Assembly (NCBI RefSeq): GCF_009914755.1
Contig: NC_060934.1
Reading direction: 5' to 3' (one strand)
Source of the DNA: the human T2T-CHM13v2.0 reference genome, Homo sapiens
DNA: 64,000 nt
The position numbers were made by a program, and so were the translations under genes. Of the stretch, positions 111 through 11,155 are shown one piece after another (the first letter of the stretch is position 1; each line of letters begins with the position of its first letter). Below the pieces are notes generated by a model. It saw only the letters and a program-made list of their open reading frames with translations. It did not search any database and had not been told where the DNA came from.

Positions 111-267
111 CTCTCTCCGGTCTCAGCCTCAATACCCTGACCATCTTCTCTTTCTGCAAGACCCCGGAGCTGCGGACTCCCTGCCACCTACTGGTGCTGA
201 GCTTGGCTCTTGCGGACAGTGGGATCAGCCTGAATGCCCTCGTTGCAGCCACATCCAGCCTTCTCCG
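111..267 (+). CDS. RGR: RGR exon 2 (157 bp)
   Basis: Acceptor ttcctttcag|CT, donor CCG|gtacca. Translates (A)LSGLSLNTLTIFSFCKTPELRTPCHLLVLSLALADSGISLNALVAATSSLL(R), matching RGR opsin TM1-TM2. Confidence 0.97.
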
Positions 268-697
268 GTACCAGCCCCCTCCCCAGTCCACAGGCTCTGG
301 GGTCCTGCCTGGGGCCTGACCCCTGGGCCCTGGGCAGCCAGGCCAAGGGCATTTTTACTACTTACAGAAAATTGGCCAAGGGCAGAGGGTGGGCAGGCTA
401 AAATGGGCTGAATTCCAGATTGATTCTGAAGAACGACAGCTGATTTCTGGAAGACAGGGGTTGCTGAAACCTGATGAAAGAGATGGTAGGCTGTAGAGAT
501 CAATGGTGTGGGTTCTGTAACCAAGCAACCTAGGTTTGCATTCTGGCTTCAGCATTTCTAGTTCTGGGCTTCTTCCATAAATCGGATATTATTTCCTAAC
601 TCATATAGGTGGTTGGAAGTATTTACTTCTATTATGTGTAAATAACTTAAAATAATGCTTGATACCTAGGACTCTACGTAAGTGTTTGTGAACACAA

Positions 698-811: not shown

Positions 812-1441
812 GTGTCTAATACCTCCTTATACAAAAACCAGGGTCTTCCATCACAGCTTCAGAAGGTGTTTATAAAATTGTTTTCTGAAGCAGACTGGAC
901 ATTCTCATTCTGGTTTTGGACACTACAGACGGAGGCTGGAGCCCCCCCGGATGTGCATGCTCAGTGCTGACCAGCCTGGGGGGTCTGCATCAGTGAGAAC
1001 TCTTCCTCCCACAGAGAATTGAAGTTTCCACCTTTGCTTGCCCTTTTAGGCTGGGGAGGCCTGGGATCTCCCCTCTGACTTTGCCTTCATCTTCTGTGTG
1101 ACCTTGGCTTCAGTATCTTTGCCTCTTTGAATGTCAGTTTCCCCACCTATCAAATACAGGCATGAGCTCTCCTGTGACAGAGGGATCTGATCACGCAGAG
1201 AGAGCCTATGGCCCAACCATGGTGCAGTCAAAGTCACCCAGCCTGGAGAGTGTGCATTGGGCTCCACCCCTTCAGCCCAGTTACTTGAGCTCCAACGCCT
1301 CATAGGAAAGACACCAATATTAAGGCCCTCTTCAGAGAAGAAGGGCAGCATTCAGGAACACACACTCCAAGCTGTACTTGGCAGGTGTGGGAGGTGGAAA
1401 GGATCGGAGGAGAGGTCACTGGTGCCCAGTGTCTCCCACAG

Positions 1442-1563
1442 GCGCTGGCCCTACGGCTCGGACGGCTGCCAGGCTCACGGCTTCCAGGGCTTTGTGACAG
1501 CGTTGGCCAGCATCTGCAGCAGTGCAGCCATCGCATGGGGGCGTTATCACCACTACTGCACCC
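1442..1563 (+). CDS. RGR: RGR exon 3 (122 bp; alternative acceptor at 1430 adds 12 nt, VSHR)
   Basis: Acceptor ctcccacag|G, donor CCC|gtatgt. Translates RWPYGSDGCQAHGFQGFVTALASICSSAAIAWGRYHHYCT (TM3, with GRY in place of the (D/E)RY motif). Confidence 0.97.
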
Positions 1564-1840
1564 GTATGTATCTGGGCTCCTGGAGTGGAGGGACACCGAT
1601 GCAGTGTGGAGAGGATAAGAGGCAGGGAGGGGCAGTCATAACTAGCTACTGCTCCGTGTTTCCCAGTACAGGGAAGTGTGGGTAGGTGTGAGTGTGCATG
1701 CATAGGCACTCATTTCAGGAAAGGAGGGAGGGTGGGAGAGTGTGCAGGAGAGCTGTTGGGCCTCTCTTGCCATTACCGCAACCTTGGGCAAGTCAGGGAT
1801 CCTCTCTGAACCTTAGTCTCCTCCTCTGCGAAATGATTTT

Positions 1841-6846: not shown

Positions 6847-6964
6847 AAACTTCACCAGCTTCCTCTTCACCATGTCCTTCTTCAACTTCGCCATGCCCCT
6901 CTTCATCACGATCACTTCCTACAGTCTCATGGAGCAGAAACTGGGGAAGAGTGGCCATCTCCAG
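6847..6964 (+). CDS. RGR: RGR exon 5 (118 bp)
   Basis: Acceptor ccctgtag|A, donor CAG|gtaagg. Translates NFTSFLFTMSFFNFAMPLFITITSYSLMEQKLGKSGHLQ (TM5). Confidence 0.97.
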
Positions 6965-6984
6965 GTAAGGACCCCCTTCTGGAG

Positions 6985-10085: not shown

Positions 10086-10408
10086 ATTTGACAAACAAAG
10101 AGTACAGACCCAGGAGGAAGCGCTTATTATCCACCCAGTCTCGGCCTCCAGCCACGTTGGGTATTGTCAGGCCATTTTACAGACACAGCAGCTGAGGTCA
10201 GGCAAGTTTAAATAAAAGGCTTAAGGTCACACAGTCTTAAACAACAGAGAGGCCCATCTGGTCCCAAGTTCCCCTGCAGACTCAGCCCCCTCCTGAAGCC
10301 TGGTCCATGCTGCCCCGCCCTGCTGAGTGCTGACCTGGTTTTCTTGGCCACATAGGGCTGTGGGCCACCTGGAGCAAGCTGACATCTCCTGTGACAATTT
10401 CTCCCCAG

Positions 10409-10522
10409 GTAAACACCACTCTGCCAGCAAGGACGCTGCTGCTCGGCTGGGGCCCCTATGCCATCCTGTATCTATACGCAGTCATCGCAGACGTGACTTC
10501 CATCTCCCCCAAACTGCAGATG
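10409..10522 (+). CDS. RGR: RGR exon 6 (114 bp, frame-preserving; skipped in RGR-d isoform)
   Basis: Acceptor tttctccccag|GTA, donor ATG|gtacag. Translates VNTTLPARTLLLGWGPYAILYLYAVIADVTSISPKLQM (TM6). Confidence 0.97.
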
Positions 10523-11023
10523 GTACAGATACTTCTAGTACCTAAAACTAGACCCCTCTCCATCTTTGTTCTCTGTCTCATCTCATCTCACTTTCTGGAT
10601 TTATGACCTCTGTGTCAGTCTCTTCCTTTCTGTGTTTCTTCCTTTGGATACTCACAAGGCATAGAGCATTAGTTTGCCCCCCTAATCCCCCACCTCGTCT
10701 CTGAGTCATACCAGGCTGCTGCTTGACATTGCCCAAACCTCATGTGAGATGACAGGGACAGCCAGCCAGATGGTGTAGATAAAGACTCTGTGACCAGGGG
10801 TTGAGATTAGTCCCCAGGCTGGGAGCAGGTGGGTCTGGACAAGAGTATGGCTCCATGGACTCCGTGAGCCATGCATCTCCACCAACTAGTCAGGGAAGCC
10901 TCCAAGGCTGCAGAACTAAATGATTGGCAGTTGTAGGTGGAGGGTGACCGGGGTCACCAGGTGAGACCAGAGAGAGGATCAGTGGCTTTGAAGCTTCTTT
11001 TCTGGACTTTTCTGCCACAACAG

Positions 11024-11155
11024 GTGCCCGCCCTCATTGCCAAAATGGTGCCCACGATCAATGCCATCAACTATGCCCTGGGCAATGAGATGGTCTGCAG
11101 GGGAATCTGGCAGTGCCTCTCACCGCAGAAGAGGGAGAAGGACCGAACCAAGTGA
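11024..11155 (+). CDS. RGR: RGR exon 7 coding part, to TGA; retinal-binding Lys255 codon at 11042-11044
   Basis: Acceptor caacag|GTG. Translates VPALIAKMVPTINAINYALGNEMVCRGIWQCLSPQKREKDRTK*. Exons 2-7 total 797 coding nt, consistent with a 291-aa protein given a 79-nt coding exon 1 outside the window. Confidence 0.97.
   Translation: MPALIAKMVPTINAINYALGNEMVCRGIWQCLSPQKREKDRTK

What the first reader, a model, noticed from the sequence alone, without database searches (positions are those of the whole stretch)
10401..10528. RGR exon 6 looks like a recursive-splicing exon, a candidate mechanism for RGR-d skipping
Seen: exon 5 ends ...CTCCAG and exon 6 begins GTAAAC. Joining them rebuilds CAG|GTAAAC, a 7/9 match to CAG|GTAAGT; the genomic acceptor itself also reads CAG|GTAAAC. 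The native exon 6 donor ATG|GTACAG matches only 4/9. Exon 6 is 114 nt and frame-preserving. Established: exon-6 skipping gives the RGR-d isoform found in human RPE/drusen. AG|GT ratchet exons can be removed by recursive splicing, which the exon junction complex normally suppresses. Inference: RGR-d may arise by re-splicing from the rebuilt donor to the exon 7 acceptor rather than by direct skipping.
Basis: partly seen in the sequence, partly recalled or inferred. Interest (0 to 1): 0.75.

Follow-up and report, generated by a model that had tools for sequence, protein, structure and literature searches.

The report
RGR exon 6 rebuilt splice donor
The exon of the human eye gene RGR that is skipped to make the drusen-associated RGR-d protein really does begin with a hidden splice-donor motif, but whether that motif causes the skipping is still an untested, cheaply testable idea.

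Summary
Exon 5 ends CTCCAG (6959-6964) and exon 6 starts GTAAAC (10409-10414). Both the spliced junction and the genomic acceptor read CAG|GTAAAC. The exon 6 donor is ATG|GTACAG (10520-10528). Exon 6 is 114 nt, phase 0.

By U1 pairing, the rebuilt donor has 7 contiguous pairs (-8.3 kcal/mol) and the native donor has 4 (-4.2). This fits the qualitative definition of an annotated recursive-splicing exon (Blazquez 2018). The formal cut-off, MaxEntScan 5.52 or more, could not be computed.

The motif is not rare. It occurs in 3.6% of human exons, 93.8% of them constitutive. Coding for Gln|Val-Asn forces at least 5/9 of it.

A simpler cause exists. The native donor scores no better than 23% of all GTs in the window. 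RGR exons 2 and 3 have equally poor donors, do not start with GT, and are also reported skipped in human retina. Only exon 6 is frame-preserving on its own.

No paper holding both "recursive splicing" and "RGR" was found.

Verdict: a plausible candidate new member of a known class, with no evidence yet on route. One-step skipping as the main route: about 0.5. Recursive route substantial: about 0.33.

The parts
6847..6964 (+). RGR exon 5 (118 nt). Its last three bases, CAG (6962-6964), supply positions -3 to -1 of the rebuilt donor. An exon junction complex would be expected about 24 nt upstream of 6964; that position is recalled from general knowledge, not taken from a call, and was not tested.
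   Evidence: Blazquez 2018 passages
6962..6972 (+). Native exon 5 donor CAG|GTAAGGAC. It is strong: 8/9, U1 duplex -11.5 kcal/mol.
10379..10383 (+). CTGAC, a candidate branch point of intron 5 (A at 10382, 27 nt before exon 6). It is followed by a 75% pyrimidine tract and ccccag.
   Evidence: motif scan only
10406..10414 (+). Overlapping acceptor and donor CAG|GTAAAC. The AG at 10407-10408 is the exon 6 acceptor. The GT at 10409-10410 is the first Val codon and the GT of the candidate recursive donor. There are 7 contiguous Watson-Crick pairs with the U1 5' end.
10409..10522 (+). RGR exon 6, 114 nt, phase 0, 38 codons (per the cited papers, all of transmembrane domain 6). It is the exon missing in RGR-d.
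10520..10528 (+). Native exon 6 donor ATG|GTACAG. It is very weak: 4/9, 4 contiguous U1 pairs, -4.2 kcal/mol. 23% of all GTs in the window score higher. It is predicted to be mostly base-paired.
10523..11023 (+). Intron 6, 501 nt. In the recursive route it would leave together with exon 6 as a 615-nt lariat whose 5' end is G10409.
   Evidence: inference
11001..11032 (+). Exon 7 acceptor (ttctggacttttctgccacaacag|GTGCCCGCC), shared by the normal, direct-skipping and recursive routes. No yTnAy branch motif lies within 60 nt upstream.

Best explanation
RGR exon 6 is a poorly defined, frame-preserving cassette exon. The main cis-cause of RGR-d is its very weak donor, ATG|GUACAG. In a minority of transcripts U1 fails to define the exon, and the strong exon 5 donor pairs directly with the exon 7 acceptor. 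This is one-step skipping, releasing a lariat of intron 5 + exon 6 + intron 6. The product is seen as a stable mRNA and protein because exon 6 is the only single exon of the gene whose loss keeps the frame. The CAG|GUAAAC at the exon start is real and could act as a donor, but it is largely dictated by coding for Gln|Val-Asn, and its contribution to RGR-d is minor or unproven.

Shown: the sequences, the relative donor strengths by proxy, and the frame.
Inferred: the route.
For: - The native donor has 4/9 consensus, 4 contiguous U1 pairs and -4.2 kcal/mol. 23% of the 2976 GTs in the window score higher on the recalled PWM.
- It is predicted to be mostly paired: mean unpaired probability 0.13-0.34 in 9 of 9 sequence contexts.
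- RGR exons 2 and 3 have equally weak donors (CCG|GTACCA at -4.3, CCC|GTATGT at -3.8) and do not begin with GT. A human-retina transcript skipping exons 2 and 3 is nevertheless listed in Table 2 of PMC10111803. 157+122 = 279 nt, which is in frame.
- Only exon 6 is a multiple of 3 on its own, so ascertainment favours seeing this particular skip.
- 93.8% of the 6,837 putative RS-exons are constitutive. Only 26.8% of 1,105 in HeLa respond to eIF4A3 knockdown. The authors state that exon definition accounts for most alternative splicing.
- Short introns (<1 kb) favour conventional over recursive lariats (Hoppe 2023 passages). Intron 6 is 501 nt.
- All 16 synonymous codings of Gln|Val-Asn give at least 5/9.
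Against: - The rebuilt donor is much the stronger of the two competitors for the exon 7 acceptor: 7 contiguous U1 pairs, -8.3 against -4.2 kcal/mol, and about 5 bits better.
- It equals or beats 5 of the 10 annotated donors in the window, including the real LINC00858 exon 5 donor CAG|GTAATA.
- In the donor-competition model, a stronger recursive donor predicts skipping unless it is repressed.
- The strong exon 5 donor, the reasonable exon 6 acceptor (CTGAC branch motif, 75% pyrimidines) and the weak exon 6 donor together favour removal of intron 5 first. That is the precondition for recursion and the profile of EJC-sensitive RS-exons.
- In the predicted ensemble the rebuilt donor is mostly unpaired (0.80).
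- The exons 2+3-skipping transcript is a computational assembly. I saw no RT-PCR validation of it in the passages read.
Confidence: 0.5

Rival explanations
1. Recursive (two-step) splicing is a substantial route, giving a third or more of RGR-d. Intron 5 is removed first and exon 5 is ligated to exon 6, rebuilding CAG|GUAAAC. Where EJC repression is incomplete, U1 uses this site in preference to the far weaker AUG|GUACAG. Exon 6 + intron 6 then leave as a 615-nt lariat, joining exon 5 to exon 7.
For: - The anatomy meets the qualitative definition of a putative RS-exon.
- The rebuilt donor is stronger than the native donor by all three proxies.
[quoted passage not shown] They show that sensitive exons have a stronger 3'ss, a weaker 5'ss and upstream-intron-first order. 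They also show that recursion contributes to physiological skipping of several exons, such as MRPS5 and AP1G2.
- The donor-competition model is supported in vivo in Drosophila.
- A chosen exon carries such a site by chance in only about 3.6-4.9% of cases, yet the exon that is skipped is the one that carries it.
Against: - There is no RGR-specific datum on route.
- MaxEntScan 5.52 or more was not verified. The site lacks the +5 G and +6 U.
- Most RS-exons are never skipped.
- The weak donor explains skipping without recursion, as for exons 2 and 3.
- Intron 6 is short and is transcribed very soon after exon 6 (only 501 nt separate them), so intron 6 may often be committed before or along with intron 5 (inference).
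- Val-Asn fixes GT, +4A and +5A. If Gln-Val-Asn is conserved, other mammals would carry nearly the same site, yet RGR-d is reported only in human. Conservation was not tested here.
- 'RGR' occurs 0 times in the three readable supplementary files of Blazquez 2018, one of them the RS-lariat table. I did not check whether that table names genes or whether the sampled cells express RGR, so this absence says little.
Confidence: 0.33
2. The AG|GT motif acts on the unspliced pre-mRNA, before intron 5 is removed and without any EJC involvement. There are two possibilities. (a) U1 bound to the genomic ccCAG|GUAAAC sterically hinders U2AF at the overlapping exon 6 acceptor, promoting ordinary one-step skipping. 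(b) The site is used as a donor first, removing exon 6 + intron 6. That fuses the intron 5 acceptor (ccccag) to exon 7 (GTGCCC), and the regenerated acceptor is used in a second step (nested order).
For: - The genomic 11-mer at the acceptor is identical to the post-splicing junction 11-mer, so U1 affinity is the same before splicing, when no EJC is present.
- After a nested first step, the sequence ...ccccag|GTGCCC would be a normal acceptor (inference).
- Multi-step, non-sequential removal exists in the literature (Hoppe 2023 describe distal exonic recursive sites; nested splicing in DMD is recalled, not read).
Against: - There are no data for this.
- The site is less accessible in the predicted unspliced ensemble (0.35-0.51) than after splicing (0.80).
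- Acceptor-bound U2AF/U2 normally win at annotated RS-exons, which are mostly constitutive.
- Exon 6 is included in most transcripts.
Confidence: 0.1

Closest known systems
Annotated ('proximal') recursive-splicing exons repressed by the exon junction complex (Blazquez et al. 2018, PMC6224609; examples KPNA1, aCADM2, MRPS5, AP1G2)
   Same: - The exon starts with GT and follows an exon ending in CAG, so ligation rebuilds a donor.
- It has a weaker downstream donor and a reasonable acceptor.
- It sits in an ordinary protein-coding context.
- Skipping gives an annotated isoform.
   Different: - Membership by the paper's numeric cut-off (MaxEntScan 5.52 or more) is unverified.
- There is no EJC-knockdown, PRPF8 iCLIP, lariat or reporter evidence for RGR.
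- 'RGR' occurs 0 times in that paper's three readable supplementary files.
Intronic ratchet points / cryptic RS-exons in very long introns (Drosophila Ubx, kuz, Bx; vertebrate sites of Sibley 2015 and Duff 2015, as summarised in PMC8605326 and PMC10156609)
   Same: - It has a YAG|GT juxtaposed acceptor-donor motif with an upstream pyrimidine tract.
- The same competition occurs between the regenerated donor and the RS-exon donor.
   Different: - The introns here are 3,444 and 501 nt, against medians of about 550 kb for sawtooth-defined sites.
- Exon 6 is a conserved coding exon included in most mRNAs, not a cryptic exon that is always removed.
Distal exonic recursive sites of cassette exons (Hoppe et al. 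2023, PMC10156609)
   Same: Both are a two-step route to cassette-exon exclusion inferred from AG|GT at an exon edge.
   Different: That class needs YAG at the exon's 3' end. Exon 6 ends ATG, and the nearest CAG (10517-10519) lies 3 nt inside the exon. Using it would leave an extra Met codon, which the RGR-d junction peptide GKSGHLQVPALIAK lacks.
Ordinary weak-donor cassette exons skipped through failed exon definition
   Same: - The donor is very weak (4/9).
- The length is frame-preserving.
- Skipping is partial (up to 17%).
- Other weak-donor exons of the same gene are also reported skipped.
   Different: A competing, stronger donor is rebuilt at the exon's 5' edge, which typical cassette exons lack.

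Membership tests
Annotated RS-exon (Blazquez et al. 2018) | Exon-exon junction with the preceding exon rebuilds a GT-containing 5' splice site exactly at the junction | tested here: met
   Exon 5 ends CAG and exon 6 starts GTAAAC, so the junction is CAG|GTAAACAC.
Annotated RS-exon (Blazquez et al. 2018) | Rebuilt site scores MaxEntScan 5.52 or more (the level reached by 90% of canonical human donors) | not testable with these tools
   - No MaxEntScan tables are on the script machine.
- Two literature searches for the 9-mers with scores found nothing usable.
- Proxies: 7/9, 7 contiguous U1 pairs, -8.3 kcal/mol. The site is stronger than 5 of the 10 annotated donors in the window.
Annotated RS-exon (Blazquez et al. 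2018) | Upstream intron removed first (asymmetric sites: stronger 3'ss, weaker 5'ss) | tested here: inconclusive
   Sequence proxies agree: a strong exon 5 donor, a CTGAC branch motif plus 75% pyrimidine tract at exon 6, and a very weak exon 6 donor. Splicing order itself needs RNA data, and intron 6 is only 501 nt.
Annotated RS-exon (Blazquez et al. 2018) | Skipping depends on the intact rebuilt donor and rises when EJC core or RNPS1/PNN are depleted | not testable with these tools
   This needs reporters and knockdown in RGR-expressing cells. I found no RGR-specific EJC-depletion data: 'RGR' is absent from the three readable Blazquez supplementary files, and no paper holds both 'recursive splicing' and 'RGR'.
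Annotated RS-exon (Blazquez et al. 2018) | RS-lariat: 5' end of the exon joined to the downstream branch point | not testable with these tools
   No read data are available. The term 'RGR' occurs 0 times in the 3 readable supplementary files, which include the RS-lariat table.
Intronic ratchet point in a long intron (Drosophila / Sibley-Duff type) | Site lies deep inside a very long intron and its RS-exon is cryptic (never in mRNA) | tested here: not met
   The flanking introns are 3,444 and 501 nt. Exon 6 is an annotated coding exon present in most RGR mRNA.
Distal exonic recursive site (Hoppe et al. 2023) | Cassette exon ends in YAG immediately before the GT of its donor | tested here: not met
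   Exon 6 ends CAGATG|gt. The CAG is at 10517-10519, 3 nt inside the exon.
Weak-donor cassette exon (exon-definition skipping) | Donor far from consensus, exon length a multiple of three, partial skipping | tested here: met
   The donor matches 4/9 at -4.2 kcal/mol, and 23% of the window's GTs score higher. The exon is 114 nt. RGR-d reaches up to 17% of RGR mRNA.

The most novel reading that the evidence does not exclude
RGR-d is made mainly by two-step recursive splicing through the rebuilt CAG|GUAAAC donor. Its level in retinal pigment epithelium would then report how well the exon junction complex on exon 5 represses that donor. Lower EJC activity in aged, post-mitotic RPE would raise production of the drusen-associated isoform. 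That would link a general mRNP-fidelity mechanism to an AMD-relevant proteopathy and make RGR-d tunable through the exon-start motif or the EJC site.
Probability: 0.2. Interest if true: 0.65.

Novelty: new member of a known kind. Interest (0 to 1): 0.4.

Why it matters
RGR-d is a common human isoform, reported only in human. It lacks transmembrane domain 6, accumulates in Bruch's membrane and drusen, and is pathogenic in knock-in mice. In the papers I could read, nothing is said about why human RPE makes it.

If the recursive route were real, three things would follow:
- It would be a disease-relevant example of physiological RS-exon skipping in a short-intron gene.
- It would tie RGR-d output to EJC function.
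- It would suggest specific handles (the exon-start codon, the EJC site on exon 5, the weak donor) for lowering RGR-d.

If it is not real, the finding reduces to a weak-donor cassette exon whose first codons happen to resemble a donor, as in about 3.6% of human exons.

Tried and rejected
- **MaxEntScan or SpliceAI scoring:** no tables or models are on the script machine.
- **Published scores for the two 9-mers:**
  - The search for 'CAGGTAAAC' found 262 papers; the 20 listed looked unrelated to splice-site scoring by title and abstract.
  - The search for the 9-mers together with 'MaxEnt' found 3 papers, none relevant.
- **Massively parallel 5'ss assay (Wong 2018):** identified through PMC9311317, but PMC6179149 is not held.
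- **Supplements of PMC10904865:** After that I read main texts only. The supplements I could not see may contain activity values for both 9-mers.
- **Blazquez supplements:** 3 readable files, with 'RGR' at 0 occurrences. The PDF supplements, which hold the score distributions, are not readable.
- **RGR literature on mechanism:**
  - Bao 2021 (PMC8351129) and Kochounian 2009 (PMC2763577) are not held.
  - Jiang 1995, Fong 2006 and Lin 2007 were not seen; they are cited only through others.
  - PMC7910522, PMC7917623, PMC6527609 and PMC12805961 say nothing about exon 6 splicing in the passages read.
- **Earlier scan notes:** not open.
- **Cross-species comparison of the Val codon and the donor:** no vertebrate DNA collection is offered. 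The claim 'other species carry the same Gln|Val-Asn' is therefore untested.
- **Considered and rejected:**
  - U12-type donor: the sequence does not fit.
  - Re-splicing of the mature mRNA: the exon 7 acceptor is gone once intron 6 is removed.
  - A Hoppe-type distal site: the exon does not end in YAG.
- **RNA-folding results:** kept only as a side note. The pairing partners of the native donor change with context, and the local z-score is only -2.17 (5 of 200 shuffles fold as well).

Full report
**What is there**

The window carries RGR exons 2-7.
- Exon 5 (6847-6964) ends ...CATCTCCAG and is followed by gtaaggac.
- Exon 6 (10409-10522) is preceded by ...gctgacatctcctgtgacaatttctccccag. It begins GTAAACACC and ends ...CTGCAGATG, followed by gtacagat.
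- Exon 7 begins at 11024 with GTGCCC, after ...ttttctgccacaacag.
- A script over the annotated coordinates gave intron lengths of 3,444 nt (intron 5) and 501 nt (intron 6). It gave exon lengths of 157, 122, 154, 118 and 114 nt for exons 2-6.
- The reading frame makes exon 6 phase 0, 38 codons, starting Val-Asn (GTA AAC) after Gln (CAG).
- The 11-mer at the spliced ex5|ex6 junction and the one at the genomic acceptor are identical, CAG|GTAAACAC.

**How strong are the two donors**

MaxEntScan and SpliceAI are not available here, so I used three proxies. They are consensus matches, base pairing and ViennaRNA duplex energy with the 5' end of U1 snRNA (a recalled 11-nt motif), and a position weight matrix from recalled approximate human donor frequencies. 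The matrix is indicative only.

| Site | Consensus | Contiguous U1 pairs | Duplex energy (kcal/mol) | PWM (bits) |
|---|---|---|---|---|
| Rebuilt donor | 7/9 | 7 (-3 to +4) | -8.3 | 3.55 |
| Native exon 6 donor | 4/9 | 4 | -4.2 | -1.69 |

- Among the 10 annotated donors in the window (5 RGR, 5 LINC00858), the rebuilt site is stronger than 5 and weaker than 5.
- The real LINC00858 exon 5 donor, CAG|GTAATA (-8.1 kcal/mol), is its near equal.
- Of 2976 GT dinucleotides on the + strand, 80 (2.7%) reach the rebuilt site's PWM score and 63 (2.1%) reach 7/9. The native donor is beaten by 23% of all GTs.

**What the known class requires**

I read passages of Blazquez et al. 2018 (PMC6224609).
- A putative RS-exon is any exon that rebuilds a 5' splice site at the preceding junction. 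Operationally the cut-off is MaxEntScan 5.52 or more.
- 3.6% of human exons (6,837) qualify, and 21.7% of genes contain one.
- 93.8% of these exons are constitutive.
- In HeLa, eIF4A3 knockdown increased skipping in 26.8% of 1,105.
[quoted passage not shown] - PRPF8 iCLIP and 287 RS-lariats show that recursion contributes to physiological skipping of some exons.
- Joseph et al. 2021 (PMC8605326: outline, abstract and discussion read) support donor competition. They also show that exonic sequences and prior splicing modulate the outcome.
- Hoppe et al. [quoted passage not shown]

How RGR exon 6 compares:
- It meets the qualitative definition.
- It shows the asymmetric profile: a strong exon 5 donor at -11.5 kcal/mol, a CTGAC branch motif at -27 with a 75% pyrimidine tract at the exon 6 acceptor, and a very weak exon 6 donor.
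- The numeric threshold, the splicing order, EJC dependence and lariats could not be tested.

**Why the simpler reading is still ahead**

1. The native donor is poor enough to predict partial failure of exon definition on its own.
2. RGR exons 2 and 3 have equally poor donors and do not begin with GT.
   - Even so, Table 2 of a human-retina transcript catalogue lists an RGR transcript that skips exons 2 and 3 (PMC10111803, passages).
   - 157+122 = 279 nt, which is in frame.
   - This is an assembled transcript. I saw no validation of it.
   - Weak donors in this gene therefore seem to give skipping without any rebuilt donor.
3. Exon 6 is the only single exon whose loss keeps the frame, so its skipped product is the one expected to be stable and noticed.
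4. The motif is largely a by-product of coding.
   - Val fixes GT, and Asn fixes +4A and the non-consensus +5A.
   - All 16 synonymous codings of Gln|Val-Asn give at least 5/9. The actual one ranks third.
5. Intron 6 is only 501 nt, so it may often be committed together with intron 5. That would pre-empt recursion.
6. If Gln-Val-Asn is conserved (not tested here), other mammals would carry almost the same rebuilt site, while RGR-d is said not to be found in other species (PMC4783578). A human-specific cause would then more likely lie in the freely evolving intronic half of the native donor.

**What still favours recursion**

- Once exons 5 and 6 are joined, two donors compete for the exon 7 acceptor, and the upstream one is the stronger by about 4 kcal/mol and about 5 bits.
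- Under the competition model, inclusion then depends on repression of the rebuilt site. A leak of the observed size (up to 17% of RGR mRNA) is plausible.
- The exon that is skipped is the one that carries the motif, which has a chance expectation of about 3.6-4.9% per exon.
- In predicted ensembles the rebuilt donor is mostly unpaired in the part-spliced RNA (0.80).
- The native donor, by contrast, is mostly paired: 0.17 in that RNA, and 0.13-0.34 in 9 of 9 contexts.
- The pairing partners vary, however, and the local fold is only modestly better than shuffles (z -2.17, 5 of 200 fold as well).
- A rough Bayesian estimate gives about 0.3:
  - my assumed prior is that 1-2% of cassette exons are skipped by recursion;
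  - the likelihood ratio is about 25, from the 3.6-4.9% base rate.

**A third possibility**

The genomic acceptor already reads CAG|GTAAAC, so U1 could bind there before intron 5 is removed, when no EJC is present.
- It could occlude the acceptor, which promotes one-step skipping.
- Or it could serve as a donor first, which fuses the intron 5 acceptor to exon 7 and regenerates an acceptor (nested order).

This matters for test design. Only an intron-5-less reporter, lariat mapping and EJC perturbation can separate them.

**Novelty**

- No paper in the searched library holds both 'recursive splicing' and 'RGR' as whole words.
- Of the 14 papers holding 'RGR-d' and 'exon', I read passages of four (PMC10615142, PMC4783578, PMC6031102, PMC7910522). 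None discusses splice-site strength or route, and 'splice site' occurs 0 times in the first two.
- The primary RGR-d papers of 1995, 2006 and 2007 are not held and were not seen.
- The mechanism itself is established. The application to RGR would be a new member of a known kind.

**Verdict**

- Estimates:
  - one-step skipping from the weak donor as the main route: about 0.5;
  - recursion as a substantial route: about 0.33;
  - pre-splicing action of the motif: about 0.1.
- Interest is 0.4. It is a well-posed hypothesis, cheap to test, on a disease-relevant isoform. It rests on a motif that is common, mostly silent and largely forced by coding, and there are no data yet on route.

Noticed in passing
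window 10826-10836 and 10958-10968 (+): Intron 6 contains two unused donor-like sites far stronger than the native exon 6 donor. They are CAG|GTGGGTCT at 10829 (PWM 5.94, -11.4 kcal/mol) and CAG|GTGAGACC at 10961 (6.89, -11.1 kcal/mol). The second lies only 63 nt before exon 7. They could act as U1 decoys or as alternative donors that extend exon 6.
   Followed up: no
window 265-275 and 1561-1571 (+): The RGR exon 2 and exon 3 donors (CCG|GTACCAGC and CCC|GTATGTAT) are as weak by proxy as the exon 6 donor, so 3 of the 5 RGR donors in the window are poor. A human-retina transcript catalogue lists an RGR isoform skipping exons 2 and 3 (PMC10111803, Table 2).
   Followed up: partly
window 10470-10580 (+): The native exon 6 donor is predicted to be mostly base-paired (mean unpaired probability 0.13-0.34 in 9 of 9 contexts). 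The local fold is -19.8 kcal/mol with z -2.17 (5 of 200 shuffles fold as well). The pairing partners change with context, so no single stem is established.
   Followed up: partly
window 5378, 10409, 11024 (+): Three of the five acceptors of exons 3-7 are followed by GT (exon 4 GTAGCC, exon 6 GTAAAC, exon 7 GTGCCC). Only ex5|ex6 rebuilds a good donor. The RGR-d junction ex5|ex7 reads CAG|GTGCCC (5/9, -6.8 kcal/mol), but exon 7 is the last exon.
   Followed up: yes
window 10517-10519 (+): A CAG lies 3 nt before the end of exon 6 (ctgCAG ATG|gt). If used as an acceptor it would leave a 3-nt ATG micro-exon. The RGR-d junction peptide reported in the literature has no extra Met, so this is not the RGR-d route.
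   Followed up: partly
window 10553-10640 (+): A long pyrimidine-rich stretch (ctctccatctttgttctctgtctcatctcatctcactttc...tcttcctttctgtgtttctt) starts about 30 nt downstream of the weak exon 6 donor. It could bind U-rich or CU-rich splicing regulators that set donor use.
   Followed up: no
window 1430-1441 (+): The annotated alternative exon 3 acceptor lies 12 nt upstream (cccag|tgtctcccacag|). Its pyrimidine tract is poor (35%), and it gives the in-frame 4-codon insertion isoform.
   Followed up: no
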